Shown piece by piece: positions 8,563 through 27,878 of a DNA stretch of 64,000 bases. Position numbers and translations under genes: made by a program. The notes beneath the pieces are model-generated. The model searched no databases. It was not told where the DNA came from and saw only the letters and a list, made by a program, of their open reading frames with translations. How positions within the stretch are numbered: position 1 is the first letter of the stretch; each line of letters opens with the position of its first letter. The stretch comes from Planctomycetota bacterium (GTDB lineage Bacteria > Planctomycetota > Planctomycetia > Planctomycetales > Planctomycetaceae): assembly GCA_963694825.1 (NCBI GenBank), contig CAVOEV010000001.1:223-64222 (forward strand). The letters are read 5' to 3'.

Positions 8563-8657
8563 GTGTTTCGATGTTTCGAGTTTGTAGCGAGGAGTCGAAG
8601 CAACGCTACAATGGCGACACGGTTTTGGCGGTCCGGTATTGGGGGGGAGACGAGTTG

Positions 8658-9626
8658 ATGTCAGGTCAGAATGAGGAGTTTTCGGTTCAGGCGGCTGTAT
8701 CGCGGCGTTATGCGGCGGCAGCTCGTGCGGTGGAGCCGGAGTTGTGTTGTGCGGTTCAGTACGATGCCAGGTTTTTGGAAGCGATTCCCTCTGAGGTGAT
8801 CGAGCGGGATTACGGATGCGGCGACCCGAGTCGTTATGTCGTCGAGGGTGACGTTGTGTTGGATCTGGGTTCCGGCGGCGGGAAGTCCTGTTTCATAGCG
8901 GCTCAGGTTGTCGGTCCAACGGGCGAGGTGATCGGGGTAGACGCGAGCGACGAGATGTTGGCGTTGGCGCGTGGTGCAAAGTCTCGGGTGGCGGCGGCGA
9001 TCGGTTACGACAACGTGAGTTTTCTGAAGGGCCGCATCCAGGACCTGTCGTTGGATCTCGAGCGGCTTGAAGTCCATCTGGCTGACGAGTCGATTGGAGA
9101 TCTCGAGAGTTGGCATCGGACGGAGGCGGCGATTCGTGGTTGGCGGCGGGACCGGCCGCTGGTGGCGTCGGATTCGATCGACATCGTGGTGTCCAACTGT
9201 GTATTGAATTTGGTGGATCCCGGCGATCGGATCCGGTTGTTTGACGAGTTGGCCCGCGTCTTGAAGCCGGGTGGACGGGCGGTGATCAGCGACATTGTCT
9301 CGAATCGTGATGTGCCGGAACATTTGCAGCGTGACGAGTCGCTTTGGAGCGGTTGCGTGAGCGGTGCGTACCGCGAGGACCGGTTGCTCGAGTCGTTTCG
9401 TGCGGCGGGGCTAGTGGGGGTCGAGTTGTTGGTGCGGCAGCAGGATCCGTGGACTGTAGTCGAGGGAATCGAGTTCCGTAGCGTGACGGTTCGAGCGTTT
9501 TCTCCGAAACCCGCTGATGGACCCGCTGATGGACCGGGTCCAGTGGGATTGGTTGATGTGATTGGTTTGGGTGAGTTGTCGAGCGGTGTTGGTCCGTGTT
9601 GCGGCCCGGACGGGGAATGCAGCTAG
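8658..9626 (+). CDS. SAM-dependent methyltransferase, arsenite methyltransferase (ArsM)-like
   Basis: ATG 8658 follows GGGGGGGAGA. The SAM motif is VLDLGSGGG. The cysteine pattern matches ArsM (ELCCAVQYD, YGCGDP, SNCVLNLV, WSGCVSGA). Confidence 0.75.
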   Translation: MSGQNEEFSVQAAVSRRYAAAARAVEPELCCAVQYDARFLEAIPSEVIERDYGCGDPSRYVVEGDVVLDLGSGGGKSCFIAAQVVGPTGEVIGVDASDEMLALARGAKSRVAAAIGYDNVSFLKGRIQDLSLDLERLEVHLADESIGDLESWHRTEAAIRGWRRDRPLVASDSIDIVVSNCVLNLVDPGDRIRLFDELARVLKPGGRAVISDIVSNRDVPEHLQRDESLWSGCVSGAYREDRLLESFRAAGLVGVELLVRQQDPWTVVEGIEFRSVTVRAFSPKPADGPADGPGPVGLVDVIGLGELSSGVGPCCGPDGECS

Positions 9627-9756
9627 TGGGGGGTTGGTGTTGAGTGCCTGACGCCGATTCTCGGGTGATTCCCAAATCGGCAGCGGATTGATAGGATCGG
9701 TTGTCGGCGGTGGAAGCGTGTTAGCGAGACGATCGAGGCGAGAGCACGATAGGCAC

Positions 9757-10785
9757 ATGTCTGGGCAGTTTCGAGTCATGTCGTGGTCGATCGCCTTGGG
9801 CGAGTGGACGGGGACGCGCATCCGGTTCAGCGTGTGGTTTGTGTTGGCTGGAGCGGTGTTGTGTCTTCAGTTGCCGAGTGTGTCGTTGGGGCTGATGGCG
9901 ACGGCGGTCTTGTGTTTCAGTGTCTTGTTGCACGAGCTGTCTCACGTGTGGGTGGCTCGCGGCACGGGTGGCTGGTGTGACGAGATCCTGGCCTGGCCTC
10001 TAGGCGGCTTGTTGTTTCCGTCCCCGCATGACACTCGTCGTGCCCAGGTCTTGACCGCCTTGGCCGGTCCAGCGGTTCATTCGATGGTTTGCCTGGTGAC
10101 GGGGATCACGGTCTGGCGAGCCGGGCTGATCGAGGGTGCCTTGAACCCGTTGTCGGGTTGGCCGGCGTTGAGTGTGTCGACGGGACTCGACGTGGTGCGT
10201 TCGGTGATCATGATGTTGTTTGTGATCAACTGGGCGTTGTTGCTGATCAACCTGCTGCCAGTGCATCCATTTGACGGAGGTCGTGTGCTGGAGTGTTTGT
10301 TGTCGGAGTGGCTGGTGGAAGAGACGGCGACCGACTTGTACCTTCGACTGGGTGCACTTTCTGGTGTGGGGTGTCTGATTTCGGGGATGCTGGCCGATCA
10401 ATCGGGTTGGCATGGCACGTGGGTGGTTGCCCTGGGTACCGTGGTGCTGGTGTTGAATCTCGACGAGATTTCCAGCCGGCGGGCCAGCGACGAATTGGAT
10501 TCCGCGTTGTTGGAGTACGAGTTGGCATTGGATGACGTGGTCGAGGAGTTTGAGCCAATCGAAGACGAGGAGGCTTTGTTGGAGCGGTGGCGCCAGCATC
10601 GCGAGGCGAGTGTTGAGGAGCAGGAGCAGGATCGGCAGCGGGCGTTCGAGCGTGAGGTCGACATGTTGTTGAAAAAGATCCACGGTTGTGGATTCGAAGG
10701 GCTCAACGAGGACGAACAGAGGCAATTACTACGAGCCAGTCGGCAGTACCGCGACCGCACGGGCCGGTCCGAGGAGACAGTTTAG
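9757..10785 (+). CDS. M50 family site-2 zinc metalloprotease (no PDZ domain)
   Basis: HExxH motif (LLHELSHVWVA) and NxxPxxxxDG motif (NLLPVHPFDGG), with multiple TM helices. ATG 9757 is preferred over the TTG at 9688. Confidence 0.85.
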   Translation: MSGQFRVMSWSIALGEWTGTRIRFSVWFVLAGAVLCLQLPSVSLGLMATAVLCFSVLLHELSHVWVARGTGGWCDEILAWPLGGLLFPSPHDTRRAQVLTALAGPAVHSMVCLVTGITVWRAGLIEGALNPLSGWPALSVSTGLDVVRSVIMMLFVINWALLLINLLPVHPFDGGRVLECLLSEWLVEETATDLYLRLGALSGVGCLISGMLADQSGWHGTWVVALGTVVLVLNLDEISSRRASDELDSALLEYELALDDVVEEFEPIEDEEALLERWRQHREASVEEQEQDRQRAFEREVDMLLKKIHGCGFEGLNEDEQRQLLRASRQYRDRTGRSEETV

Positions 10786-10787
10786 TG

Positions 10788-11426
10788 ATGAGTGGTATGA
10801 GTTCGAGTTGCGGGCTGTTGCTGATTGGGTGTTCCGCGTTGTCGTTGAGTACTGGTTGCGCCGAGGCACCGGTTTCGGAAGTGCGGGTGCGTTCGGCCGG
10901 TGAGGTGGTGGTTCGTAAGGCGGGAGACGACTCGAAGTCGTCGAGCAGTTCGTCAGATGACGGATTGGGATCGGGCACTGCGAGTCGAGTCAAGCAGTTG
11001 ATGGGGATCCGTTTCGATGTGCCCGCGTCGTGGGACGAACAGCCCGAATCGGAGTTCTACGAGGCGAAGTATATGATTGGTTCGGAGTCGGGCGAGATGA
11101 TGTTGACATTGACGACGATGGGCGGTGGGATTGAGGCGAATCTCGAACGTTGGGTCGGTCAGTTTCAGCAGTCGCCGGGTAGTCGTCCGCGTCGTGAGAC
11201 ATTGCGAGTCGACGGGACGTCATCGGAGTGGCTGGATGTTCGCGGGACGTTCGGCAGTCGGGTTGGCAGTCGACCGGGTCCTCACGAGGATTGGCGTTTG
11301 CTGGGCGTGGCGATCCCGATGCGGCCTCGGCCGTTCCTGTTGAAGTTGGTGGGGCCGCGAGCAGCGGTGTCGGAGTTCGAGGACGAATTCCGCAGTTTCG
11401 TGCGATCGGCTCAGTTGGACCACTAG
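10788..11426 (+). CDS. Putative lipoprotein, function unknown
   Basis: The ATG at 10788 directly abuts the stop of the M50 gene (10783-10785). Lipobox-like leader MSGMSSSCGLLLIGCSALSLSTGC. The listed ORF start 10686 lies inside the M50 gene. Confidence 0.7.
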   Translation: MSGMSSSCGLLLIGCSALSLSTGCAEAPVSEVRVRSAGEVVVRKAGDDSKSSSSSSDDGLGSGTASRVKQLMGIRFDVPASWDEQPESEFYEAKYMIGSESGEMMLTLTTMGGGIEANLERWVGQFQQSPGSRPRRETLRVDGTSSEWLDVRGTFGSRVGSRPGPHEDWRLLGVAIPMRPRPFLLKLVGPRAAVSEFEDEFRSFVRSAQLDH

Positions 11427-11447
11427 CCAGTCCAATAGGGCCCGCGG

Positions 11448-11720
11448 TCAGTTTCGGCGGCTCGAGCGGCAGACGGCGTAGATCGAGGCTCCGACGAGCA
11501 GGGTGACCATCAGGTATCCGATCGAGTTCCAGAACGTGCCACCTGAGGTGGCAACGCGTTGAGGCTGTTCGGATCCGTCGGTATCACCGGCATCGGCGGG
11601 AGCGGCATCGGCCTGGGCTTGGGCCTGTGGTGGTGCGACGAGCAGGGTGATGAACAGTGCGAGTGCCAGGCCGAGTGCGAGTCGTGTTGCGATACCGGCT
11701 CGAGTTGGGTGTGGGTTCAT
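11448..11720 (-). CDS. 90-aa protein: signal peptide, acidic Ala/Asp linker, GG motif, C-terminal TM helix and basic tail
   Basis: ATG 11720 (MNPHPTRAGIATRLALGLALALFITLLVAPPQAQA). The C-terminus is SGGTFWNSIGYLMVTLLVGASIYAVCRSSRRN. It is short, so coding status is uncertain. Confidence 0.5.
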   Translation of the reverse strand: MNPHPTRAGIATRLALGLALALFITLLVAPPQAQAQADAAPADAGDTDGSEQPQRVATSGGTFWNSIGYLMVTLLVGASIYAVCRSSRRN

Positions 11721-11819
11721 GATTGAGGTCTCGGTTCCCGTGCCGGATCGTTTCGGCGGCATCGCGTCTCTATTGGATTGGCATGATAGAAAGCGTCGTG
11801 AAGTTGGCAAGAGGAGGTG

Positions 11820-13157
11820 TCAGTCGTCGTATTGTTCGAGTGCGTCGGCGAGTGTTGTGACGAGTTGTTCGTCGTTGATCTCGAGTTGTTCCCCGCTGGC
11901 AAGATTCTTGATTTGCCACGTACCGTTTTCGAATTCATCGGCCCCGGCGATCACGACGAGTCGAACCCCTTTTCGGTCGGCGTACTTCAGTTGTTTACCG
12001 AGCGGCCGCGGGTCGGTGTAGACCTCACACGAGATGCCTGCGGTTCTGAGTCGTCGTGCTACGGCGAGGTAGTCGGCGGCGTGTTGCGAATCGAAGTGAG
12101 CCACAAGCACATCGGCGGCGTAGGTGTTCTGGTCGACGAGTTCGAGTTCCTGCATGGCGGCGAGGAGTCGATCGAGTCCGAGGCTGGCTCCGACGCCGGG
12201 CAGTGGTTGTGAGGTGAACAATCCGGCGAGGTTGTCGTAGCGGCCTCCGGAGCAGACGCTGCCGATTCCGGGCAATTGGTCGAGAAAGGTTTCGTAGATG
12301 GTGCCGGTGTAGTAGTCGAGTCCGCGAGCGATGGCGGGGTCGAGTTGAATGCGGTCGTCGGGGATCCCGGCCACCCGGCAGGCTTGGAAGAGTTCCCGGA
12401 GTTGTGACACACCCTGGGTCCCGATTTCGGATTGGTCGAGGCGGAGGGCGAGTTGATCGAGGATTGTGTCGGGTGTGCCGTGGCAGTCGGCGAGTTCGAG
12501 GATTCCGGCCGCCTGTTGACTCGAGAGCCCGACTCGTTGCTTGAGTTCCTCGGCAACTCGTTCGGGTCCGATTTTGGCGAGTTTGTCGAGGCAGCGGAGG
12601 ACTTGGTCGCTGTGGTCGTTGAGTTGGAGTGTTTCGAGCAGTCCGTTGAGCAATCGGCGATTGTTGATTCGGATTGTGAACCGAGTGAATCCGATGCGTT
12701 CCATGAGGTCATTGATGACGAACAGGGTTTCGATGTCGGCGGTATTGGACGTGGTGCCGATCGTATCGAAGTCGCACTGGATGAATTCTCGGTAGCGTCC
12801 TTTCTGGGGTTTCTCGGCGCGCCAGACGGTTCCCACGTGATAGCGTTTGAAGGGAGTGCCGATTTCGTGCAGGTGTTGTGCTGCATAGCGAGCTAGTGGG
12901 ATGGTGAGATCGAACCTCATGGCGACATCTCGACCGCCCTGGTCGGTGAAGCGGAACAGTTGTTTGTCGGAGTCCTCGCCGCCTTTCCCCAGCAGGATCT
13001 CACTGTACTCGAGTGCCGGAGTGTCGATGGGCGAGAAGCCGTAGCTGCGGTAGACACTTCGGACCGAGTCGATCAGTTGTTCTCGGGCGTGCATCGGTCC
13101 GGGCAGGTGGTCACGAAACCCCTTGAGGGTGACCGGCTTGATCCGTGGCTGGTTCAT
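11820..13157 (-). CDS. hisS: Histidine--tRNA ligase
   Basis: MNQPRIKPVTLKGFRDHLPG... and RYHVGTVWRAEKPQKGRYREFIQCDFD are class II HisRS motifs. ATG 13157 follows GGAGG. The ORF track's 13292 start is an upstream extension. Confidence 0.95.
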   Translation of the reverse strand: MNQPRIKPVTLKGFRDHLPGPMHAREQLIDSVRSVYRSYGFSPIDTPALEYSEILLGKGGEDSDKQLFRFTDQGGRDVAMRFDLTIPLARYAAQHLHEIGTPFKRYHVGTVWRAEKPQKGRYREFIQCDFDTIGTTSNTADIETLFVINDLMERIGFTRFTIRINNRRLLNGLLETLQLNDHSDQVLRCLDKLAKIGPERVAEELKQRVGLSSQQAAGILELADCHGTPDTILDQLALRLDQSEIGTQGVSQLRELFQACRVAGIPDDRIQLDPAIARGLDYYTGTIYETFLDQLPGIGSVCSGGRYDNLAGLFTSQPLPGVGASLGLDRLLAAMQELELVDQNTYAADVLVAHFDSQHAADYLAVARRLRTAGISCEVYTDPRPLGKQLKYADRKGVRLVVIAGADEFENGTWQIKNLASGEQLEINDEQLVTTLADALEQYDD

Positions 13158-13582
13158 GTTGCGGCCTCCAGAACGGGCAGCGAGACGGGTCCACGTTGTC
13201 GACGTCGACCGAGCAGGGCTTCGGCGTATTCTTGGATCTGTTCGGGCTGTTCGAACAGTCGGTCGTAGCAGGCGTCGTTGTCGAATTCGCAATTGGCGGT
13301 CGAGTAGGTTCGGCAGAGGGTGGGTCGGTTGTCGTAGATGCCGCAGCGGTTGGAGTGGTCGAGTTGATCGCAGGTGTTGTGGATGAGCAGGTACCAGTTG
13401 TCGTCGTCGACAAAGACCGAGACGTCACCGTGGAGCATGTACCAGCGGATGTTTTCGTAGTCGTTGCGGTCGACGGGGGTGTCGATGGGCAGTGCGAAGT
13501 ATCGGCAGCAGCGGCCGGTACAGTGATCGCAGAGCACCTGGTCCGGGGCGAGGTTGTGTCGGCGGACGGATGCGGAGTTCAT
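13154..13582 (-). CDS. YkgJ/UPF0153-type cysteine-cluster (CxxCxxCC) protein
   Basis: CDHCTGRCCRYF plus downstream Cys residues. ATG 13582. Its stop overlaps the hisS start (ATGA at 13154-13157). Confidence 0.75.
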   Translation of the reverse strand: MNSASVRRHNLAPDQVLCDHCTGRCCRYFALPIDTPVDRNDYENIRWYMLHGDVSVFVDDDNWYLLIHNTCDQLDHSNRCGIYDNRPTLCRTYSTANCEFDNDACYDRLFEQPEQIQEYAEALLGRRRQRGPVSLPVLEAAT

Positions 13583-13844
13583 TTGGACGGGAATCCGTGG
13601 CGTGCGATGTTCGCGGCGTGCCGCTGCTGGTGGGCAATTGTAGTCAAGAGTGGCGGGAGTGGGTATGTCTGTCTGTTGGGCAGGTTGTGCGGGTTTTGGT
13701 GTTGGGGGAGATCGGGGTGATTGCTTGGTCGGGTCGGCTGTCGGTCTGAGCGGCCTGGGGTTCATTCTTCTTGACCGACCGGGAAGTTTGGGCCTAAGAT
13801 TGCTTGGTCGTGTGGTCTGGCGGCAGATCTGGAGAGGAGCAGGA

Positions 13845-14768
13845 ATGCATTGGTCGGGGAAGGTGTTTGCTGGTTTGGTGTTGATCGGAGCTGTGGCGGC
13901 GATTGCGCTGTCGGCTCGGACTCACCAGGTTCGTTCGTCCTGGCACAAGAGATTGTCGGGTTACCGTGGCGAGTTTGAGACTGACCAGGAGGAGTTGCGT
14001 CGCGGGCGGTTCAGTCACGACGCGAGCCAGGTGGACCTGGCGAACGCCAAGCGAGGTTGGGGCGATTTCTCTGACGACGTGACCGTGACGGTCAACGCGC
14101 AAAACGGTTACCTACAGACACGTGATCAGGAAACGATGGCGGTTGTGTCGACCGGTGGAGGCAACGACCAGCAGCCATTGATGGTCCATGGATTCCTGAA
14201 GAACGCGGACGGGAGCGTGCGGTTTGTCGGCACGTTCGTTCAGGACGGAGCGGTTCAGAACGGGTTCCGTGTCTGGAAGCCGACGTGGCAGTTGCGGGCG
14301 GCGGACCAGGTGGCGAGTTGGGGAAGCGGCAAGTGGCGTCTGAGGTCTCTGATTCCCGCTCACCAGAAGACCCGTTTCGTCAATCTCGAGGTCCTACTGA
14401 CTCAGGCTGATCAGACATCCGACGACACGGGTCTGGATGCTCGGATCAAGGGCGAAGTGGACTTGAAGGCTGACGAGCAGTTGCGGTTGCGGTTTGCGGA
14501 GTTGATGGGTGGCAACGCCGACCTGGCGGGACTCGAGGGCAAGTTGCCCGGTTACATGATCGACGGCTTGGTGCGTGCGATTGCTGCGGCCGAGGAGGAT
14601 CGCAACCAGTCGATCGAGACGGTGGACACGTTGCGTCGGGACCTGAAGTCGAACCATGATCGAGCCAACCGGTTGTTGAAGCAGAACGGTGCGTTGGAAC
14701 GCAGTCTGCCGGGTTCGAGCAGTTCAGCGGCGACGGTATCTCGAGTGACGGGGAACCGACGGAAGTAG
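13845..14768 (+). CDS. Membrane-anchored hypothetical protein
   Basis: ATG 13845 follows GGAGAGGAGCAGGA. N-terminal TM helix VFAGLVLIGAVAAIALSA. C-terminal coiled-coil-like region. No recognised domain. Confidence 0.6.
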   Translation: MHWSGKVFAGLVLIGAVAAIALSARTHQVRSSWHKRLSGYRGEFETDQEELRRGRFSHDASQVDLANAKRGWGDFSDDVTVTVNAQNGYLQTRDQETMAVVSTGGGNDQQPLMVHGFLKNADGSVRFVGTFVQDGAVQNGFRVWKPTWQLRAADQVASWGSGKWRLRSLIPAHQKTRFVNLEVLLTQADQTSDDTGLDARIKGEVDLKADEQLRLRFAELMGGNADLAGLEGKLPGYMIDGLVRAIAAAEEDRNQSIETVDTLRRDLKSNHDRANRLLKQNGALERSLPGSSSSAATVSRVTGNRRK

Positions 14769-14863
14769 CACTCGGGTTCGAGCCGGAGTGTGTGGCACGA
14801 CGCCAAGACGGCCGGCCGGATTCCTAATCCGATTTCCGGTCCATGAGATGCCAGGGAGCGGGC

Positions 14864-16075
14864 ATGGGAATCCACAATCGCGATTATCACCGCGACGACG
14901 CCTCGTCATCGGCCTCATGGCAGGGGTCCTACGGCGGAACTGGTGGCGGATCTGGTGGCGGATCTGGCGGCGGCTTTGGCGGCGGCTTTGGCGGCGGTGC
15001 CCGTCCGTCCGGGCCGATGTCGGCCGTCAAGGTTCTGGTGATTCTCAACATTGTCGTCTTCTTTGCGACGTGGTTTTACAAGCCACTGGGTCACCTGTTG
15101 CATCTCCCGGCCACGTTCACCGTGGCTCGCGACGGAGCCAATCTTCACGTTCCGGCACCGGTCGAACGTGTTGAGGGCCAGTTGTTGTCGGCCGGGAGTT
15201 ACGTGGTGGTGTTACACGGTGGTGCACGAGAGTTGCAGCGTGTTCGTCTGAAGCACCCCGAGTTGTTTCTCGACGTCCGCACCGACTTCCGAACCGATCC
15301 GGACTCGTGGGTTGCTGTCGAGGCGGCGGTCGAATCGGACGGGGCGCGATATCGGGTACGGGGTGTGATGCGTCGTTCCGAGATCGGATCGATTGCCTGG
15401 CAGTTTCCCTGGCGAGTGATCACGTACGGGTTCTGTCACGACCAGACCACGTTATTGCACTTGGCCTTCAACATGATTTGTCTGTGGATGTTCGGTCGAT
15501 TGATCGAGGGGATCTACGGTCGGCGCGAGTTCTTTTGGGTGTATTTGCTGGGCGTTCTGGTCAGTGGTGTCTGTCATCTGGGTTGGCAGTTGGCATCGGG
15601 TGGCAGCGTGGTACCGATGGTGGGGGCATCGGGAGGCGTGATGGCGGTGATGGTCCTGTCGGCGGTCCATTTTCCGAAAATGAAGGTGTTGTTGATGATG
15701 TTCATCCCGGTCGAGTTGGGGATGTTGGTTGTGGGCCTGGTGGTGTTGGACGTGATACGTGCATTGGGGATGTTTGGCGGTGAGACTCATGTCGCCTACA
15801 TGGCTCATTTGGGCGGAGCGGCATTCGGGTATGGTTACCATCGAAGCGGGATCCGCTTGAGTTCGATTTCGGACGGGGTATCCAAACGAATGCGGTTCTG
15901 GCGTCGCCGTGCGGTTCGGCCTTCGGTCCGAGTCTACAAGCCGTCGGTCGATGGTCTCGATGACCAGGTCGATGCGTTGCTCGAGAAGATCAGTCGCGAG
16001 GGCGAGGCGAGCCTGAGCGATGGGGAGCGTGAGTTGCTGATGGAGGCGAGTCGGCGGAAGCGTGGCAAGATCTGA
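14864..16075 (+). CDS. Rhomboid family intramembrane serine protease
   Basis: HxxxN (HLAFN), GxSG (GASGG) and the catalytic His helix (AHLGGAAFG). ATG 14864. Gly-rich N-terminus, long loop 1 and a C-terminal charged tail. Confidence 0.9.
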   Translation: MGIHNRDYHRDDASSSASWQGSYGGTGGGSGGGSGGGFGGGFGGGARPSGPMSAVKVLVILNIVVFFATWFYKPLGHLLHLPATFTVARDGANLHVPAPVERVEGQLLSAGSYVVVLHGGARELQRVRLKHPELFLDVRTDFRTDPDSWVAVEAAVESDGARYRVRGVMRRSEIGSIAWQFPWRVITYGFCHDQTTLLHLAFNMICLWMFGRLIEGIYGRREFFWVYLLGVLVSGVCHLGWQLASGGSVVPMVGASGGVMAVMVLSAVHFPKMKVLLMMFIPVELGMLVVGLVVLDVIRALGMFGGETHVAYMAHLGGAAFGYGYHRSGIRLSSISDGVSKRMRFWRRRAVRPSVRVYKPSVDGLDDQVDALLEKISREGEASLSDGERELLMEASRRKRGKI

Positions 16076-16369
16076 ATCGGGCCTGGTGCCTGCCTGCCGC
16101 CTGTCGTCCCGTGGTCGTTTGATTCGTCCAGATCGCTCGTGACATGTGTCGGATATGTCCGCCGGGTCTGTATGTTCAATTCCATCACACCACCGAGTGT
16201 CCCGGGTCGAAATCCATGTCAGTATTCCAGTCGAGGCCCATTGGGGCAGGAGCAGGGGCAGGAGCAGGAGTCGCGTGTGGGAATGCCGCAGTCGGGTCGT
16301 GGTAGCGGCCGCCGTCCGGGCAGGGTTAGACTGAGCGGGTTGTCCCATGGCCCCGGGTGTCGAGAGAGC

Positions 16370-16996
16370 ATGTCCGAATCTGACAGCAGCGGTTCGATGT
16401 TGATCGATCTGCTCGAGCGGGCTCGCGCGGGCGACGACGGGGCGCGGGACAAGTTGTTTGCTCGTTGCCGCAACTACGTCCGGGTGTTGGCTCGGGTGCA
16501 CATCGAAAGTTGGCTGCAGGCGAAGGTGGATCCTTCGGATCTGGTTCAGCAGACATTGCTGGAGGCCTACCGTGGTTTGGACGGGTTCCAGGGTCAGACC
16601 GAGGGCGAGTGGCTGTCGTGGCTTAAACAGATACTCAAGCACAACGCCACCGACTACATCCGGCATTACAAGGGGACGGCCAAGCGGCGGATCCAGCGGG
16701 AGGTGCCGATGGAGTTGCCCGGTGACGGGTCGAGTCTGTTTCGGCTTGATCCAGCGGCTCGGAGCGAGACTCCGAGCCAGTTAGTGATGCAGCACGAGCG
16801 CGAAATCCAGTTGGCCGAAGCGGTGAGTCGTCTGGATGAGGATTACCAGGAGGTGATCTTGTTGCGAAATGTGCAGCGGTTGAGTTTCAACGAAGTGGCT
16901 GAGCGAATGGGTCGTTCACGTCCGGCGGCCCAGATGCTCTGGCTTCGGGCTTTGAGGAAACTGAAAGAGCAGTTGCAGGATGTCGAGAGTGCCTGA
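16370..16996 (+). CDS. ECF-type RNA polymerase sigma factor (kinase-associated, ECF43-like context)
   Basis: Region 2 (DPSDLVQQTLLEAYRGLDGF) and region 4 (YQEVILLRNVQRLSFNEVAERMGRSRPAAQMLWLRALRKL). ATG 16370. The 16139 start in the track is an extension. Confidence 0.9.
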   Translation: MSESDSSGSMLIDLLERARAGDDGARDKLFARCRNYVRVLARVHIESWLQAKVDPSDLVQQTLLEAYRGLDGFQGQTEGEWLSWLKQILKHNATDYIRHYKGTAKRRIQREVPMELPGDGSSLFRLDPAARSETPSQLVMQHEREIQLAEAVSRLDEDYQEVILLRNVQRLSFNEVAERMGRSRPAAQMLWLRALRKLKEQLQDVESA

Positions 16997-18785
16997 GGAG
17001 CGTGATTCTGACGCGACGCCACTCGAGTCCAACTTGATCGATGCGCTGGACCGGCTGGTCGACGCGATCCAGGCCGACGACCGCGAGGCGGGGGATCGGT
17101 TGCTGGTTTCTGAGCCAGAGTTAGCCGAGTTCATCGGGTGTCTGTCTCGTCTCGAGGCATTGGTTCCAGCGACAGTGGTGTTCGAACCGCGTGATGTTTC
17201 GGGATTGGAGTCAGAGAGCGGGCGGACTTTGGGTGTTGGAGAGTCCGAGTCTGATTCGAGTGGCGATCGGATTGGGACTCGGTTCGGCCGATACGAGTTG
17301 CTGGAGCGGATTGGTCGTGGTGCGATGGGTGTGGTGTATTTGGCGCGTCAGACGGACCTGGACCGCACGGTGGCATTGAAGTTGGTGACTCCGGGCCGAA
17401 TGGGAGCGGAGGTGGACGTGGCCCGTTTTCACAGTGAGGCTCGTGCGGCGGCTCGTCTACGTCATCCGGGGATCGTGGGGGTATTAGAGGTTGGTGAGTT
17501 TGATGGCCAGCACTTCATTGCGATGGACTACGTAGCGGGAGGCAGTTTGGAGCAGCAGTTGGTGAGCGAGTCGTACGGTGCGGATGCGCGTGCGGTTGGG
17601 TCGGACGATTCGGTTTTGTTGTTGACGTCTCCGGCGGGTCTGTGGCGTCGGTCGTCGGCGGGGAACCGGGTCGAGCCGGACATGGCTGCCGGTTGGGTCT
17701 CAGAGATCGCTCGTGCTGTGGACCATTTGCACAATCATGGGATCGTGCACCGCGACTTGAAGCCGGCCAACATTCTGTTGGACGAGGAGCAGCGTCCCTT
17801 GGTGACGGATTTCGGGTTGGCGTTGGTGCGTGGTGACGCGGCGACGTCGATCGCGGGTGGCACGATCGTGGGGACTCCGGCCTACATGGCTCCCGAACAG
17901 GCGGCGGGCGATGTCGAATCGATTTCGCCGCGAAGTGACATCTTCAGCCTGGGAGTGATCCTGTACGAGTTGATCACCGGCCGGGCCCCGTTCGGGGTCA
18001 GCAATCCGTTGGACACATTGGTTCGGGTGCTCGAGGTCGATCCCGAGTTGCCGACGTCGCTGGAGCCGTGGTTGTCTCGCGAGTTGGAGCACATTTGTTT
18101 GAAGTGTCTCGAGAAGGATCCTGCCAACCGGTACGACTCGGCGTCCGAGTTGGCCGATGATCTGGAGCGATACCTGAGGCGAGAGAACGTGCAGGCTCGG
18201 CCGGGAGGTGTTATTCATCGATTCCGGCGTTGGGGTCGCCGGCAGCCGGTGCTGTTGGCTCATCTGGTCGCCCTGGGCCTGGCGGCTGGGATCAACCAGG
18301 TCGGATTCCTGATCGGTGGCGACAGCGAGTCCCCGGGTGTGCATTTGCGGGTGATGTCGATCCTGGCCGGCTGGATGGTGCTGTCGGTTGTCTGCCAGTG
18401 GTTGTTGCGAGGCGATCGTGTTCAGGGGGCGGTGCGTTTCGGTTGGTGTGCTGCCGACGCCGGGTTGTTGACGGCCGTGTTGGCTCAGAACTCGGTCCCA
18501 CCCGGTCCGATCCTGGTGGGGTATCCGTTGTTGATTGTGGCATCGGGGTTGTTCTTCCGGGTTCGGCTGGTCTGGTTCATGACGTTGTCGTGCGTTGTGG
18601 GTTACGCCGTTTTGCTGGGTGTTCGTCGGCAGCAGTTTGCAGACACCTTGCCGGGTGAGCCTCCGTGGCAGTACCCGATCATTTTCGCTGCGGGCCTGGC
18701 GGTGATGGGGACTGTCGTGGCCTACCAGGTGTTTCGGGTCCGAGTGCTGAGTCGTTACTACCGGCGTGCCGGGCGTGTGGAATGA
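16980..18785 (+). CDS. Ser/Thr protein kinase with a C-terminal multi-TM domain
   Basis: GRGAMGVVY, VALK, HRDLKPANILLD, DFGLA and GTPAYMAPE motifs, followed by about 5 hydrophobic helices. It overlaps the sigma gene by 17 nt. Confidence 0.9.
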   Translation: MSRVPEERDSDATPLESNLIDALDRLVDAIQADDREAGDRLLVSEPELAEFIGCLSRLEALVPATVVFEPRDVSGLESESGRTLGVGESESDSSGDRIGTRFGRYELLERIGRGAMGVVYLARQTDLDRTVALKLVTPGRMGAEVDVARFHSEARAAARLRHPGIVGVLEVGEFDGQHFIAMDYVAGGSLEQQLVSESYGADARAVGSDDSVLLLTSPAGLWRRSSAGNRVEPDMAAGWVSEIARAVDHLHNHGIVHRDLKPANILLDEEQRPLVTDFGLALVRGDAATSIAGGTIVGTPAYMAPEQAAGDVESISPRSDIFSLGVILYELITGRAPFGVSNPLDTLVRVLEVDPELPTSLEPWLSRELEHICLKCLEKDPANRYDSASELADDLERYLRRENVQARPGGVIHRFRRWGRRQPVLLAHLVALGLAAGINQVGFLIGGDSESPGVHLRVMSILAGWMVLSVVCQWLLRGDRVQGAVRFGWCAADAGLLTAVLAQNSVPPGPILVGYPLLIVASGLFFRVRLVWFMTLSCVVGYAVLLGVRRQQFADTLPGEPPWQYPIIFAAGLAVMGTVVAYQVFRVRVLSRYYRRAGRVE

Positions 18786-24185: not shown

Positions 24186-25223
24186 GTGTTGAGAAGTCAG
24201 ATTCGAAAGACGGCATTGGCGATTGCCTGTCGCAACTTGGCCACGATGTTGTATTCGGGCGTTCCGGTGGTGCGGGCCTTGGAGTTGGCCGGCCGAAAGG
24301 TGCGGGACGTGCGTTGCCGCGAGTCGTTCGCGGATCTGGCGAGTCAGGTGCGTTCGGGCGAGGAAATTTCCGACGCGATGTCTCGGCAGGGTCGCAGTTT
24401 TCCGCCGTTAGTGATCGACATGGTGCGGTTGTCTGAGCACAGTGGCGCTTTGCCGGAGGTGTTGGAGCACCTGGCCGATCATTTCGACAACACCGTAGCG
24501 TTACGGCGTCGTTTTGTGTCTCAGATCACCTGGCCGGTGCTGCAGTTCCTGTTGGCGACCGGAGTGATTGCGTTGGTGATCCTGGTCTTGGGCATGTTGC
24601 CTGGTGGTGAGATGGTTTCGGAGATCACGTTTGGTTTACGTGGTCCGGGCGGAGCGATCACGTTCTTGGCGATTGTCTATGGTACGTTGATGTGTTTGGG
24701 TGGTGGTTACCTGCTGGCTTCGAAGGTCACCACGGCTCGGCAGATCGTCGACCGGTTGTCGTTGTCGATGCCGGTGATCGGGAGTTGCCAGCGATCGTTT
24801 GCGATCGCGAGGTTTTCGTGGGCGTATTATCTGACTCAGCAGACAGGGATGTCGATCCGCGAGAGTTTGCGTGCGACATTTCAGGCGACTGGGAACGGGG
24901 CATTTCAGTCGAAGTGTGAATCGGTGTGTCGGTCGATCGAATCGGGTGATTCGTTGACGGTTGCCCTGGCTGACACGGGTTTGTTTCCCGAGGACTTCAT
25001 CGAAATGGTCGACGTGGGTGAGACGTCGGGCACGGTGCCCGAGCAGTTGGAGCGTCTGAGTCCTCGATTTCGCGAGCAGGCGGAGCGGTCGTTGCGACTG
25101 TTGTGCAATGCCATTGCCTGGGCGGTCTGGGGAGTGGTGGCTACGTTCATCGTATTCTTCGTGTTTCGATTTTTCCTGTGGTATGTCGAACAGATCAATG
25201 ATGCACTGGAGGGGATTCAGTGA
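24186..25223 (+). CDS. Type II secretion system F (GspF/PilC) family membrane protein, orphan
   Basis: Two T2SS-F repeats ([16 protein letters not shown]...[22 protein letters not shown], and [33 protein letters not shown]) flank TM helices. GTG start. There is no GspE/PilB ATPase in the window. Confidence 0.85.
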
Positions 25224-26350
25224 GTGATCGTGCGACGGGTTTTGAATTCGAGATCACGGCAACGAGTACGGCGACGTCGGCCCGTTGCGGTGCCTGGCAC
25301 ACGCCTCATGGAACGGTCCAGACACCGGCCTTCATGCCGGTGGGGACGCGTGGGACGGTGCGGGGTTTGTGGCCGGAGCAATTGCGAGCGACGGGTGCCG
25401 AGATGGTGTTGGCCAACACATATCATCTGGCATTGCGACCGGGCGCGGAAGTGGTCGAGGCACTTGGGGGCCTGCATGGCTTCATGCAGTGGGACGGGCC
25501 GATCCTGACCGACAGTGGTGGGTTCCAGGTCTACAGTCTGGCTGAATCGTCGCGGCTGACCGACGAAGGTGTGTCGTTCAAGTCGCACATTGACGGCAGT
25601 TGGATGGAATTGACTCCGGAACGGGCGGTTGGGTTGCAGGAGCAGTTGGGAGCCGACTGCATCATGTGTCTGGACGAGTGTCCGGCGTCGGATGTTTCGC
25701 CCGAGAGACTCAGGCGGGCCGTCGACCGAACGACCGACTGGGCCCGTCGCTGTAAGGACGTTCAGACTCGCACGGACCAGGCTCTGTTCGGGATCGTGCA
25801 GGGTGGGACCGATCCATCGATGCGTGAGATTTCGGCCGAGGGGTTGTTGCGGTTGGATTTTCCCGGCTACGCAGTCGGGGGGCTGAGTGTCGGAGAATCA
25901 CCGGAGTCGATGTATGCGACGCTGGATGTGACGACGGTGATGTTGCCCGAGGATCGGCCGAGATACTTGATGGGTGTGGGGACGCCGAGGGATTTGTACG
26001 AGGCGGTAATTCGGGGTGTGGATCTGTTTGACTGCGTGATGCCGACGCGAAATGGCCGGAGTGCATCGGCGTTCACGTCCGAGGGTGTGGTGCGGTTGAA
26101 GAATTTGAAGCACCGAACCGACGATCGGCCACTGGATGCCGGGTGCGCGTGCACGGTTTGCAGTCGATTTAGTCGCGGTTATCTGCGTCACCTGTTCCTG
26201 GCTCAGGAGATGCTGGGGCCGATCCTGGTCTCATACCACAACCTCGTGTTCTACCAGGACTTCCTGCGATCGTTGCGTGAAGCGATCCGTGTGGGCGGGC
26301 TGGATGAGTTTAGATCGGTTCACCTTGCTGAGGTTTCGGCATCTCTCTAG
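25220..26350 (+). CDS. tgt: tRNA-guanine transglycosylase (queuine tRNA-ribosyltransferase)
   Basis: [19 protein letters not shown] and GGLSVGE motifs, plus the zinc site [17 protein letters not shown]. The start overlaps the preceding stop (GTGA). Confidence 0.95.
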
Positions 26351-26443
26351 AATACGAGTTTGGCCCGTCCCGGGAGCCGGGTGGTCGCGTTCCGGCCTGT
26401 GGTCGGTGTCGTGTAACAAGACGATGTGTGAGAGGTACGGGGG

Positions 26444-26944
26444 ATGCGTGTGATGTTCTGGGCACGTGGGCGAGCGAGGTTCAGTGATATTTTAGCAGCG
26501 ACCCTTTTGGGGCTGCTGGTGTTGGTGTTTGCGGGGTCGGTTACTGCCCAGGACGGTAAGGCGTCCGAACCACCTGCTGCCGCGGCCGCGGCTGCGACTG
26601 ACGCGGTTGCCGATGGCGAAGCGGCGGGCGAAGTGTCCGAGCCGCCGTCGTTGTCGGGTATGGCTGTGCCGATCATCGGCATGGGTTTGATCTTCTACTT
26701 CATCGTACTGCGTCCTCAGAAGAAGGCTCGAAAGAAACAAGAGGCGTTGGTCGAGTCTTTGAAGAAGCACGACCGTGTGGTGACCATCGGCGGCATCGTG
26801 GGGACGATCATTTCGATCGACACGGACAACGAAGAGGTGGTGTTGGAGGTTGGGCCAGACACTCAATTGAGACTGTTGCGTCGTAGCATCCAGGGTCCCA
26901 AGCCGTTCGGCAGTGATGTCGATTCGGATTCGGGCCTTAGTTAG
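26444..26944 (+). CDS. yajC: Preprotein translocase subunit YajC with an N-terminal signal-peptide/acidic extension
   Basis: YajC core IIGMGLIFYFIVLRPQKKARKKQEALVESLKKHDRVVTIGGIVGTI, preceded by about 70 extra residues (hydrophobic leader plus Ala/Glu/Asp-rich linker). Confidence 0.85.
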   Translation: MRVMFWARGRARFSDILAATLLGLLVLVFAGSVTAQDGKASEPPAAAAAAATDAVADGEAAGEVSEPPSLSGMAVPIIGMGLIFYFIVLRPQKKARKKQEALVESLKKHDRVVTIGGIVGTIISIDTDNEEVVLEVGPDTQLRLLRRSIQGPKPFGSDVDSDSGLS

Positions 26945-27023
26945 AGGAAGTCGTCACGGCGAGTCGGTTCCAGGGACTCGGTTTCACAGGTCAGGCTGGC
27001 ACAGGTAAGGACAGGTCAAGGCG

Positions 27024-27878
27024 ATGAACGAACTCGGATTGCTGCGGATCTTGGCCGAGATTCCTGCTTGGGGGACGGGTCTGGGGTTTGTGGCTGCGGT
27101 GATTGGCGGAATTCTGGTTTCGCGGCGGTTGTCGGTTCGCGAGGAGTTTGCCGACAGTTATGTGACGATGGGCGTGCTGGGTTTTGGTGGCCTGATTGCC
27201 GTGGGGTCTCTTGTCCCCGGCCTGTTCTTCGATCTGGAGAACGGTACGCGGTTCCTGTTGGGGCTGGGCGTGGTCTTGATCGGTCTGGGCATCTGGATGT
27301 TTTCGCGAGAAATGTTACCGGGCCGACTGGTGGCCGTGCTCTGCCTGTTGTACGTGGCGATCGTGGCAACGGTGTATTGTCTGCAGCCGCAGTGGTATTT
27401 CGACAGTGGTGACGGGACGCGAGCCATCCTGTTGATTTCGGCGACGTTCGTGGTGCCTTTGAGCCTGGGTCGATTGCTGGCGATGGCATTACGGATGGAG
27501 GACCTGACGTTTCGCTTGGGTTTTGTGCTGACGGCGATCACGCTGGCCCTGTGGCCGATGGCCAAAGAAGTGGTCGCTCGAGCCGCGGAGAACTGGGTGC
27601 ACGAAGAAGCCGAGAAGAAGTGGGACGCGGGGACCAAGTCGTATCCGGTCACGGCCGAGATCAAGGAAACTCTGGGTCGAGTTCGTCCGAAGCTGACGGT
27701 TCACTATCTGTCGGACGGAAAGAGTTCGGATAGGGTGAAGCCGGCGAGTCGGCCGAGTACGATTGGTGAGCCGGCTGAGAAACCGGCTGAGAAACCGGCT
27801 GAGAAACCGGCTGAGAAACCAGCTGAGAAACCAGCTGAGAAACCGGCTGAGAAACCGGCTGAAACGGGCACGAAGTGA
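27024..27878 (+). CDS. Polytopic membrane protein (about 6 TM) with a C-terminal (PAEK)n repeat, function unknown
   Basis: 284-aa ORF between yajC and secDF. It has hydrophobic helices throughout its first 190 aa and a C-terminal EPAEKPAEKPAEK... tail. Confidence 0.65.
   Translation: MNELGLLRILAEIPAWGTGLGFVAAVIGGILVSRRLSVREEFADSYVTMGVLGFGGLIAVGSLVPGLFFDLENGTRFLLGLGVVLIGLGIWMFSREMLPGRLVAVLCLLYVAIVATVYCLQPQWYFDSGDGTRAILLISATFVVPLSLGRLLAMALRMEDLTFRLGFVLTAITLALWPMAKEVVARAAENWVHEEAEKKWDAGTKSYPVTAEIKETLGRVRPKLTVHYLSDGKSSDRVKPASRPSTIGEPAEKPAEKPAEKPAEKPAEKPAEKPAEKPAETGTK
27771..27866. repeat. 12-bp in-frame tandem repeat CC(G/A)GCTGAGAAA x7 plus a partial copy
   Basis: Read directly. It encodes (PAEK)7-8 at the 3' end of the 27024..27878 gene. 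Confidence 0.95.

What the first reader, a model, noticed from the sequence alone, without database searches (positions are those of the whole stretch)
10648..16063. The same ~35-aa C-terminal tail on two unrelated intramembrane proteases (M50 site-2 protease and rhomboid)
The M50 metalloprotease ends with EREVDMLLKKIHGCGFEGLNEDEQRQLLRASRQYR (nt 10648-10752). The rhomboid ends with DDQVDALLEKISREGEASLSDGERELLMEASRRKR (nt 15959-16063). Aligned without gaps, 14 of 35 positions are identical (pattern VD-LL-KI---G---L---E---L--ASR--R). Both segments lie 3-10 residues from the stop codon, after the last predicted TM helix and a charged linker. The two catalytic folds have no common ancestry, so this looks like a portable module shared by two proteases encoded about 4 kb apart, close to an ECF sigma/kinase pair. 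For the rhomboid it should be cytoplasmic (6-TM core, C-in). It could be a docking or regulatory helix pair. I cannot assign it a characterised function, and I cannot check whether it already matches a named DUF.
Basis: seen in the sequence. Interest (0 to 1): 0.7.

Follow-up and report, generated by a model that had tools for sequence, protein, structure and literature searches.

The report
Shared hairpin tail on two membrane proteases
Two unrelated membrane-embedded proteases of a planctomycete really do end in the same small two-helix module, which is the already catalogued but unstudied Pfam domain DUF6576; because the two genes are also kept together across the phylum, the module probably docks them to each other or to a shared partner.

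Summary
Both 35-residue tails sit at the stated coordinates and share 14 of 35 residues. None of 100,000 shuffles reaches that identity or score.

A profile built only from rhomboid tails scores every M50 tail at 33-64 bits, against at most 14 bits for shuffles. The reverse test gives the same result. AlphaFold2 predicts a confident helix-turn-helix hairpin.

Rhomboid+DUF6576 is common (8,629 cluster representatives, mostly rhomboids among the best 150). M50+DUF6576 was found only in Planctomycetota, in about 35 lineages, at the position where related site-2 proteases carry CBS domains.

The two genes are adjacent, apparently in one operon, in Phycisphaerae and in one Planctomycetia lineage, in both gene orders. 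In Planctomycetaceae, including this window and Gimesia alba, they lie 4-9 kb apart.

My best reading is a cytoplasmic docking or oligomerisation hairpin that ties the two proteases to one partner or to each other. That step is inferred, not shown. Tests for co-variation and charge complementarity between the paired tails gave weak or negative results.

It is a known domain in a little-noticed context, of moderate interest.

The parts
9757..10785 (+). Site-2 protease (Peptidase_M50) gene. The likely start is the ATG at 9757 (MSGQFRV...), chosen by alignment with orthologues; the mechanical ORF starts at the TTG at 9688.
   Evidence: Pfam PF02163, E=3.6e-15. HExxH and NxxPxxxxDG residues are invariant in alignment A4. 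The AF2 model has pLDDT 82.5, and its best PDB matches are mjS2P 3B4R (E=1.5e-9) and SpoIVFB 8VJL/8VJM.
10474..10647 (+). Cytoplasmic linker of the M50 protein. It comprises the extension of the last TM helix, an acidic break, and a long charged helix (conserved GLLERWRQ motif) that runs straight into hairpin helix 1.
   Evidence: The AF2 model shows helix 219-263, low confidence at 264-269, and helix 271-311. Conservation is seen in alignment A4.
10648..10752 (+). DUF6576 helical hairpin at the C-terminus of the M50 protease.
   Evidence: Pfam PF20216 scores 25.2 bits (E=1.8e-5) for the tail alone, below the gathering score of 27.3. A rhomboid-only tail HMM scores it 36.8 bits, against a shuffle maximum of 14. 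The tail is present in all 26 M50 relatives of the tail-bearing clade.
14864..16075 (+). Rhomboid intramembrane serine protease gene. The likely start is the ATG at 14864 (MGIHNRDY...), chosen by alignment with orthologues. It has a large periplasmic L1 insert, a GASGG serine motif and an AHLGG histidine motif.
   Evidence: Pfam PF01694, E=3.7e-22. Orthologue starts are seen in L001 and L037.
15959..16063 (+). DUF6576 helical hairpin at the C-terminus of the rhomboid.
   Evidence: Pfam PF20216 scores 33.3 bits (E=5.5e-8) for the tail alone. An M50-only tail HMM scores it 46.4 bits, against a shuffle maximum of 15. AF2 on the tail alignment gives pLDDT 86 with helix 6-22, a turn, and helix 29-45.

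Best explanation
Both tails are homologous copies of one small domain, Pfam DUF6576. It is a roughly 35-residue antiparallel two-helix hairpin: helix 1 has the pattern ..VDxxLxKIxxxG, the turn is xSLT with an S/T-x-x-E helix cap, and helix 2 has the pattern ExxLxxASRxYR. It sits in the cytoplasm at the extreme C-terminus of a rhomboid serine protease and of a site-2 metalloprotease. In the site-2 protease clade it occupies the position that the CBS domain holds in SpoIVFB-type relatives. I propose that it is a protein-protein docking or oligomerisation module. In this reading it either pairs with another hairpin into a four-helix bundle or binds one conserved cytoplasmic partner or substrate domain. 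In Planctomycetota this would place the two genetically linked proteases in the same pathway or assembly. Shown here: homology, domain identity, predicted fold, C-terminal position, host range, and gene linkage. Inferred: cytoplasmic location (from the known topology of both families) and the docking function.
For: Domain identity and homology: both tails hit PF20216, as do all 55 non-redundant tails. Cross-family HMMs separate real tails (33-65 bits) from 20,000 shuffles (maximum 14-15 bits). Conservation: the tail is present, always within 11 residues of the C-terminus, in 26/26 M50 and 121/121 rhomboid relatives. It is also present in M50 genes of about 35 Planctomycetota lineages. Fold: AF2 predicts a hairpin with pLDDT 86, above 93 in the core. 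In the full M50 model it sits at the end of a long charged helix. Seven positions are invariant in both hosts: D5, L8, K10, G15, L19, E23 and L27. Each helix carries a three-position hydrophobic stripe (V4, I7, L8, I11 and 26, 27, 30, 34), which is wider than a lone hairpin needs. Natural tandem double hairpins exist (P0249, P0244). Positional analogy: more distant M50 homologues carry CBS domains at the same C-terminal position. In SpoIVFB the post-TM6 linker plus CBS region is the cytoplasmic substrate-docking platform (PMC11486902). Linkage: rhomboid+DUF6576 and M50+DUF6576 are directly adjacent on the same strand in Phycisphaerae UBA1845, Phycisphaerales bin11 and Planctomycetota H52-bin107, in the order rhomboid then M50. 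They are also adjacent in a Planctomycetia MAG in the opposite order, with overlapping or 10-bp junctions. They lie 4-9 kb apart in Planctomycetaceae, including Gimesia alba and this window. Of 20 M50 loci with at least 5 kb on both sides, 8 have the rhomboid within reach.
Against: There is no direct evidence of binding. Within-genome similarity of the two tails (14.0/35) is barely above between-lineage similarity (13.7/35). In the permutation test 7/120 pairings reach the observed identity and 2/120 the BLOSUM score. Charge complementarity is not consistent in the paired genomes. Most M50+tail loci (12 of 20 with good flanks) have no rhomboid within 10 kb, and rhomboid+tail genes occur without a nearby M50. 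The hairpin's basic role therefore cannot depend on the pairing. Many invariant residues can be explained as purely structural (Gly C-cap, S/T-x-x-E N-cap, Ala/Ser packing), which leaves few conserved surface positions. No solved structure or significant fold match exists to transfer a function from.
Confidence: 0.45

Rival explanations
1. The hairpin acts within its own protein and has no shared partner. In this reading it is a stable, highly charged C-terminal cap that fixes the C-in topology, protects the C-terminus from degradation, or lies on the anionic membrane surface through its basic RRYRxR end. Each protease would have acquired it independently for that generic benefit.
For: Most invariant residues have plausible fold-stabilising roles, and the C-terminal end is basic. 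AF2 folds the hairpin confidently as a monomer. Most loci show no linkage between the two proteases. No co-variation is seen.
Against: A generic cap does not explain why it was found on only two intramembrane protease families among the proteins sampled. It does not explain why the two genes stay operonic across classes. It also does not explain why K10, R24 and the S31-R-R-Y segment are so conserved on what should be the hairpin surface. In the M50 model the hairpin sits at the end of a helix of about 40 residues (271-311), which probably places it away from the membrane; the hairpin-to-membrane distance itself was not measured.
Confidence: 0.2
2. The hairpin docks both proteases to a shared cellular machine rather than to each other. 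Candidates are the Sec/YidC translocon region, the ribosome, or FtsH-type quality control. This would place both proteases where newly inserted or damaged membrane proteins appear.
For: The M50 and rhomboid genes sit in an old synteny block with tgt-yajC-secDF, both in the window and in Gimesia alba. In L037, TGT directly follows the protease pair. The hairpin has a basic C-terminal end. From general knowledge, B. subtilis rhomboid YqgP uses a cytosolic domain to cooperate with FtsH.
Against: The synteny with tgt-secDF may be historical rather than functional. No machine component is consistently adjacent to the proteases. No similarity to known ribosome- or FtsH-binding motifs was found.
Confidence: 0.15
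3. The hairpin is a phospho-regulated switch. The conserved Ser/Thr residues in the turn (S18-L-T20) and in helix 2 (S31) would be targets of the many planctomycetal Ser/Thr kinases, so that both proteases are controlled by one kinase signal.
For: Ser/Thr kinase genes recur nearby. The order rhomboid, ECF sigma, kinase is seen in the window, L001, L093 and Gimesia. A kinase gene follows the stand-alone double hairpin in L090. A kinase gene lies three genes upstream of the M50 gene in L006.
Against: Kinase genes are very abundant in these genomes, so proximity is weak evidence, and there is none next to the Phycisphaerae operons. T20 and E23 form a classical helix N-cap box, which explains their conservation without phosphorylation. 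S18 is G or A in many M50 tails.
Confidence: 0.08
4. The resemblance is either chance similarity between two charged helices, or a recent local copy or gene conversion between neighbouring genes.
For: The tails are short, charged and helical, and the two genes are only 4 kb apart.
Against: None of 100,000 shuffles reaches the observed identity or score. Cross-family HMM scores of 33-65 bits compare with at most 15 bits for shuffles. M50 tails are conserved across two classes and carry a host-specific signature: position 16 is M/F/I in M50 tails but E in 87% of rhomboid tails. Within-genome identity is not elevated, so the fusion is old and not a recent copy.
Confidence: 0.01

Closest known systems
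Pfam PF20216 (DUF6576) as found on planctomycetal rhomboid proteases (for example 'Rhomboid protease GluP' of Gimesia alba, P0195)
   Same: The window rhomboid tail is an ordinary member of this family. It has the same motif, the same C-terminal position and the same rhomboid host.
   Different: Nothing is known about the family's function, and full-text searches for DUF6576 and PF20216 return no papers. The second host, M50/site-2 protease, and the gene linkage between the two hosts came up in none of my literature searches.
SpoIVFB / mjS2P-type (CBS-bearing) site-2 proteases
   Same: The membrane core has the same fold (Foldseek 3B4R E=1.5e-9; 8VJL/8VJM E about 1e-6). The nearest sequence relatives outside the tail-bearing clade carry CBS domains. 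Both types have a cytoplasmic C-terminal extension after the last TM helix. In SpoIVFB that extension is the substrate-docking platform (PMC11486902).
   Different: The window protein has no CBS domain. Instead it has a long charged helix followed by the DUF6576 hairpin. Nothing suggests nucleotide sensing.
Cytoplasmic accessory domains of bacterial rhomboids (E. coli GlpG N-terminal domain; B. subtilis YqgP/GluP N-terminal domain)
   Same: These are also small soluble cytoplasmic domains attached to a 6-TM rhomboid core. They are implicated in oligomerisation (GlpG domain swapping, cited in PMC12615303) or in adaptor function (from general knowledge).
   Different: They are N-terminal, have different folds and show no sequence relationship to this tail. 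They are not shared with another protease family.
Small helical docking or dimerisation modules (ROP-type hairpin dimers, SHOCT C-terminal domains, PKS docking domains)
   Same: These are short terminal helical elements that occur on diverse host proteins and work by pairing. They illustrate the proposed mode of action.
   Different: There is no detectable sequence relationship. No tail hits SHOCT at E<=1. ROP and GCN4 appear only as insignificant matches to helix 1 (E 0.02-0.3). The resemblance is functional analogy only.

Membership tests
Pfam PF20216 / DUF6576 | Score against the Pfam HMM at or above the curated gathering score (27.3 bits) | tested here: inconclusive
   The rhomboid tail alone scores 33.3 bits, which meets the threshold, but the full-length rhomboid scores 27.1 bits, just below it. 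The M50 tail scores 25.2 bits alone and 22.2 bits in the full-length protein, below the threshold, with E=1.8e-5. Many M50 orthologues carry a precomputed PF20216 hit.
Pfam PF20216 / DUF6576 | Homology to bona fide members shown independently of the curated threshold | tested here: met
   An HMM built from rhomboid tails only scores the window M50 tail at 36.8 bits and all 54 M50 tails at 33-64 bits; 20,000 shuffles score at most 14 bits. An exhaustive search with the tail profile finds 8,629 cluster representatives at E<=1e-3.
Pfam PF20216 / DUF6576 | Short C-terminal domain that follows the last TM helix of a membrane protease, with the conserved pattern VD-L-K-G-L-E-L-AS | tested here: met
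   The domain ends within 11 residues of the C-terminus in all 150 proteins examined. The conserved columns are shared by both hosts.
Peptidase M50 / site-2 protease | HExxH and NxxPxxxxDG catalytic motifs within the S2P membrane fold | tested here: met
   The protein hits PF02163. H59, E60, N165, P168, P171, D173 and G175 are invariant, and H63 is conserved in at least 90% of sequences. Foldseek matches 3B4R and 8VJL.
CBS-bearing (SpoIVFB-type) S2P subgroup | C-terminal CBS domain(s) (PF00571) | tested here: not met
   The window protein and its 25 nearest homologues have no PF00571 hit. CBS domains appear only in more distant homologues.
Rhomboid intramembrane serine protease | Rhomboid domain with a GxSG serine and a TM6 histidine | tested here: met
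   PF01694 hit with E=3.7e-22. GASGG and AHLGG motifs are present in the translation.
Rhombosortase / GlpG equivalogs | Score above the NCBIfam equivalog cut-off | tested here: not met
   TIGR03902 scores 23.3 bits against a cut-off of 84. GlpG models score about 12 bits against cut-offs of 250-335.
SHOCT or other named short helical C-terminal domains | Match to the Pfam model | tested here: not met
   Scanning the 55 tails against Pfam at E<=1 gives only PF20216 consistently. Other families are hit by at most 7 tails, with E>=0.002.
Hairpin-dimer four-helix bundle (ROP-like mode of action) | Two hairpins pack into an antiparallel four-helix bundle | not testable with these tools
The only support is indirect: the wide hydrophobic stripes and the natural tandem hairpins.

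The most novel reading that the evidence does not exclude
In Planctomycetota the rhomboid and the site-2 protease form one physical two-protease machine, held together by heterotypic pairing of their DUF6576 hairpins or by one bridging partner. The rhomboid would make the first cut near the periplasmic face, and the site-2 protease the second cut near the cytoplasmic face, on the same substrate. This would be a self-contained regulated intramembrane proteolysis cascade built from two unrelated intramembrane proteases.
Probability: 0.13. Interest if true: 0.8.

Novelty: new variant of a known kind. Interest (0 to 1): 0.5.

Why it matters
How intramembrane proteases are regulated and how they find substrates is largely unknown for bacterial rhomboids. 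[quoted passage not shown]

This finding offers a concrete handle on that question. One small, conserved cytoplasmic module is shared by two mechanistically unrelated intramembrane proteases, and their genes are operonic in several lineages. The module could be used as bait to find partners or substrates in tractable planctomycetes such as Gimesia or Planctopirus.

If the two proteases are physically coupled, that would be a new way of wiring sequential intramembrane cleavage. If they are not coupled, the result still assigns a fold, a host range and an evolutionary history to a domain of unknown function, including its replacement of the CBS domain in one S2P clade.

Tried and rejected
- **First homologue search.** A word-indexed search with the two tails alone found only 3 near-identical fragments. 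It was replaced by full-length searches and one exhaustive profile search.
- **Solved structures.** A sequence search of the PDB with the tail profile gave only insignificant GCN4, ROP and Cas9 helix matches. Foldseek on the hairpin model gave no hit better than E=2.7, all generic hairpins in ATPase subunits. No function can be transferred from either.
- **Tail co-evolution.** I first thought the two tails co-vary within genomes (both ...ASRxYR in Planctomycetia, both ...ATERQR in Phycisphaerae). A formal within-genome versus between-genome test gave 14.0 against 13.7 identities, with 7/120 and 2/120 permutations reaching the observed values. This is too weak, so I do not use it as evidence.
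- **Charge complementarity.** Rhomboid tails tend to be acidic and M50 tails basic or hydrophobic at positions 9, 16 and 29. This holds in the pooled sample but not in the paired genomes, so I rejected it.
- **Stand-alone hairpin family.** The scan with P0244 alone found no relatives, so P0244 is treated as a singleton.
- **ECF sigma/kinase as part of the system.** This pair is conserved only within Planctomycetaceae, so I did not count it as part of the core.
- **Literature.** No paper mentions DUF6576 or PF20216. No paper combines rhomboid, site-2 protease and Planctomycetes. A 2025 review of the rhomboid superfamily does not mention such a C-terminal domain.

Full report
**Observation**

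They are the C-terminal ends of ORF 9688..10785(+) and ORF 14843..16075(+). By Pfam the first ORF is a Peptidase_M50 / site-2 protease (E=3.6e-15) and the second is a rhomboid (E=3.7e-22). Alignment with orthologues places the likely starts at 9757 and 14864.

The tails end 10 and 3 residues before the stop codons. Without gaps they share 14 of 35 residues, with a BLOSUM62 score of 57. None of 100,000 composition-preserving shuffles reaches either value. The best 35-mer score between the two C-terminal 100-residue regions is 58, against 14.6 +/- 5.9 (maximum 47) for shuffled tails. Only these two copies exist in the 64-kb window.

**What it is**

Both tails match Pfam PF20216, 'DUF6576, family of unknown function'. 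The rhomboid tail alone scores 33.3 bits (E=5.5e-8). The M50 tail alone scores 25.2 bits (E=1.8e-5), slightly below the gathering score of 27.3. All 55 non-redundant tails I collected match PF20216 and no other family consistently.

I tested homology independently of that threshold. An HMM built only from 255 rhomboid tails scores all 54 M50 tails at 33-64 bits (window M50 tail: 36.8), while 20,000 shuffled M50 tails never exceed 14 bits. The reciprocal HMM, built only from M50 tails, scores all rhomboid tails at 35-65 bits (window rhomboid tail: 46.4), against a shuffle maximum of 15. The similarity is therefore homology, not the chance resemblance of two charged helices.

**Conservation in relatives**

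All 121 rhomboid homologues and all 26 M50 relatives of the tail-bearing clade (the window protein plus its 25 best-scoring homologues, down to about 29% identity in the catalytic core) carry the tail. It always ends within 11 residues of the C-terminus.

**Fold**

AlphaFold2 on the 55-tail alignment gives a confident hairpin, with mean pLDDT 86 and above 93 in the core. It has helix 6-22, a short turn, and helix 29-45.

In a full-length model of the window M50 protein (pLDDT 82.5), the last TM helix extends into the cytoplasm (219-263). A low-confidence acidic break follows (264-269). A long charged helix (271-311) then runs directly into hairpin helix 1, followed by the turn and helix 2 (318-341). 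The membrane core of this model matches the solved site-2 proteases mjS2P (3B4R, E=1.5e-9) and SpoIVFB (8VJL/8VJM).

Column statistics over 309 distinct tails show seven positions invariant in both hosts: D5, L8, K10, G15, L19, E23 and L27. V4, I/L7, I/V11, S/T20, R/K24, A30, S/T31 and Y34 are nearly invariant. I read G15 as the C-cap of helix 1 and S/T20-x-x-E23 as an N-capping box of helix 2. A30 and S31 would be close-packing residues. This reading is inference from sequence.

Each helix has a three-position hydrophobic stripe: V4/I7/L8/I11 on helix 1 and 26/27/30/34 on helix 2. That is wider than a lone hairpin needs and is typical of helices that pack against further helices. No solved structure contains the domain, and Foldseek finds no significant match for the hairpin.

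**Location**

The cytoplasmic location is inferred. The rhomboid has the 6-TM core with no further hydrophobic segment after the AHLGG helix, and this family is N-in/C-in. In the site-2 protease the tail follows the same last TM helix after which SpoIVFB-type relatives carry their cytoplasmic linker and CBS domain.

The rhomboid active site opens to the periplasmic side, whereas the S2P zinc site lies near the cytoplasmic side. This is established knowledge for both families. A shared tail therefore cannot play the same steric role at both active sites. That argues for a role in docking or assembly rather than in gating.

**Host range**

An exhaustive HMMER search of 1.84 billion cluster representatives with the tail profile finds 8,629 at E<=1e-3. 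The best 150 are almost all rhomboids or rhomboid fragments. The exceptions are one further full-length M50 protein and some chimeric-looking metagenome ORFs. Rhomboid+DUF6576 is thus common and already catalogued.

A scan of one genome per GTDB species with an M50+tail alignment returned 80 M50 loci. About 30 of them carry the tail, and all named ones are Planctomycetota (Planctomycetaceae, Pirellulales, Gemmatales, Phycisphaerales, Tepidisphaerales and unclassified lineages); UBA1845 comes from the contig look-ups. Of the 51 tail-less loci, 50 are from other phyla. More distant M50 homologues carry CBS domains at the same position. The simplest history is that one planctomycetal S2P clade replaced its CBS region with the hairpin that was already widespread on rhomboids.

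The fusion is old. M50 tails have their own signature, for example M/F/I at position 16 where 87% of rhomboid tails have E. They are also no more similar to the rhomboid tail of their own genome than to those of other lineages.

Two oddities exist. One is a rhomboid with two tandem hairpins (P0249). The other is a stand-alone 149-residue protein made of two hairpins (P0244). The metagenome scan found no relatives of P0244, so I treat it as a singleton.

**Gene linkage**

This is the main new point. In Phycisphaerae UBA1845 the order is NUDIX, rhomboid+DUF6576, M50+DUF6576, on one strand with gaps of roughly 100-150 bp. This was seen in two species, whose M50 is about 30% identical to the window's. 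There is a promoter-like site upstream of NUDIX and no terminator-like site until after the M50 gene. The same order occurs in Phycisphaerales bin11 and in Planctomycetota H52-bin107.

In a Planctomycetia MAG the order is NUDIX, M50, rhomboid, TGT. The NUDIX/M50 and rhomboid/TGT junctions overlap by 4 bp, and the M50/rhomboid gap is 10 bp.

In Planctomycetaceae the two genes are 4-9 kb apart within a conserved block. The block runs M50, HisRS (opposite strand), CxxCxxCC protein (opposite strand), an unknown protein, rhomboid, ECF sigma, Ser/Thr kinase, GT9. It is seen in the window, in three MAG lineages and in the complete genome of Gimesia alba.

Of 20 M50+tail loci with at least 5 kb on both sides, 8 have the rhomboid+tail gene within reach. 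By my rough estimate, the chance expectation for one specific gene in a genome of 5-8 Mb is well under 1%. Linkage that survives across classes, in two gene orders and partly as tight operons, is the usual signature of functionally coupled products. It is not universal, however. 12 of those 20 loci lack the rhomboid nearby, and rhomboid+tail genes occur without a nearby M50.

**Direct tests of coupling through the tails**

I first thought the paired tails co-vary. A formal test does not bear this out. Within-genome identity is 14.0/35 against 13.7/35 between lineages. Exhaustive permutation of five lineage representatives gives 7/120 pairings (identity) and 2/120 (BLOSUM) that reach the observed value. 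Charge complementarity appears in the pooled sample at positions 9, 16 and 29 but is not consistent in the paired genomes. I therefore do not claim sequence evidence for hairpin-hairpin pairing.

**Most likely mechanism**

I commit to the following reading, at about 0.45. DUF6576 is a cytoplasmic helical-hairpin module for docking or oligomerisation. It works either by pairing with another hairpin into a four-helix bundle or by binding one conserved cytoplasmic partner or substrate domain.

In the S2P it takes over the place of the linker-plus-CBS region. In SpoIVFB that region is the cytoplasmic platform that engages the substrate (PMC11486902). In Planctomycetota the hairpin gives the genetically linked rhomboid and S2P a common address.

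What is shown: homology, the predicted fold, the C-terminal position, the host range, the replacement of CBS, and the gene linkage. What is inferred: the cytoplasmic location and the docking function.

**Rivals**

- A purely within-protein stabilising, topology-fixing or membrane-surface cap (0.2).
- Docking to a shared machine such as the translocon or FtsH. This is suggested only by the old synteny with tgt-yajC-secDF and the basic C-terminal end (0.15).
- A phospho-switch for the abundant Ser/Thr kinases (0.08).
- Chance similarity or a recent local copy, which the data refute (0.01).

**Comparison with what is known**

The rhomboid tail is an ordinary member of PF20216. The M50 tail is a divergent member that the curated threshold narrowly misses.

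The S2P is a relative of the CBS-bearing SpoIVFB/mjS2P group but fails that group's defining feature, because it has no CBS domain. The rhomboid is neither a GlpG nor a rhombosortase equivalog.

No paper in the searchable library mentions DUF6576 or PF20216. No paper combines rhomboid, site-2 protease and Planctomycetes. A 2025 review of the rhomboid superfamily does not mention such a domain.

**Verdict**

This is a real, ancient, portable hairpin domain that is already named but functionally blank. What appears new is its presence on a planctomycetal site-2 protease clade in place of CBS, together with the conserved and partly operonic linkage of the two hairpin-bearing proteases.

Interest is moderate (0.5). 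I rate the novelty as a new variant of a known kind. The most novel reading not excluded by the evidence is a physically coupled rhomboid-S2P two-step cleavage machine. I put its probability at about 0.13, and it would be of high interest if true.

Noticed in passing
L003 8403-8927, L004 8428-8940, L006 7802-8332(-), L037 8916-9887 and others; absent next to the window M50 gene (a methyltransferase sits at window 8571-9626 instead): A NUDIX hydrolase gene of about 170-190 aa is the most conserved neighbour of M50+DUF6576. It appears in 16 of 36 loci across Phycisphaerae, Tepidisphaerales, Pirellulales, Gemmatales and Planctomycetia, either co-directional with or divergent from the M50 gene. 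From motifs visible in its sequence I take it to be of the ADP-ribose-pyrophosphatase type, but I ran no family scan. I have no functional explanation for the link.
   Followed up: partly
window 24186-31303: This stretch encodes T2SSF, TGT (queuine tRNA-ribosyltransferase), YajC, an unknown 284-aa protein, and a fused SecDF. The same block, without the 284-aa ORF, lies downstream of the rhomboid in Gimesia alba (L091). In L037, TGT directly follows the M50-rhomboid pair. The two proteases therefore belong to an old synteny block next to tgt-yajC-secDF.
   Followed up: partly
window 16139-18785; L001 17254-19657; L091 10937-13292; L093 12970-15346: The gene order rhomboid, ECF sigma factor, Ser/Thr kinase, then a family-9 glycosyltransferase is conserved from the window to Gimesia alba, whose rhomboid is 48% identical to the window's. 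It is not seen in Phycisphaerae. In the window, the sigma and kinase genes overlap by 17 nt.
   Followed up: partly
window 13845-14765 (+): A protein of about 307 aa with one N-terminal hydrophobic anchor and no Pfam match sits directly upstream of the rhomboid on the same strand. This is also the case in L001, L091 and L093. It is a possible rhomboid substrate or partner.
   Followed up: no
L090 6001-6450: P0244 is a stand-alone 149-aa protein made of two DUF6576 hairpins, with no membrane domain. Its gene overlaps the end of a T2SSF gene that follows three T2SSE ATPase genes, and it is itself followed by a Ser/Thr kinase gene. Its cluster has a single member, and a metagenome scan found no relatives.
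   Followed up: partly
L089 6001-6966: P0249 is a rhomboid with two tandem DUF6576 hairpins at its C-terminus. It comes from MAG GCA_964557725.1, whose taxonomy I did not determine, and its gene lies near flagellar genes (FliD, FliS). Its K/N/I-rich protein sequence suggests a low-GC genome, but I did not compute the GC content.
   Followed up: no
window 14864-14900 and the N-termini of orthologues in L001, L003, L004 and L037: The rhomboids of this family share a short N-terminal cytoplasmic motif, MG..(D/N)R(D/E)Y. In the window protein it is followed by a Gly-rich low-complexity stretch.
   Followed up: no
window 10785-11423 (+): A 213-aa protein with a lipoprotein-type signal (…LSLSTGC) and no Pfam match immediately follows the M50 gene. 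The same neighbour is found at this position in five loci (L001, L002, L009, L011 and the window). L093 has a 214-aa ORF with no Pfam hit at the same position, which I did not compare.
   Followed up: no
L006 9692-11353; L091 1765-3423; also L007, L010 and L020: A protein of about 550 aa with HD_5/HD domains (HD-GYP-like, with GAF or HDOD) directly follows M50+DUF6576 in several Planctomycetia lineages, including Gimesia alba.
   Followed up: no
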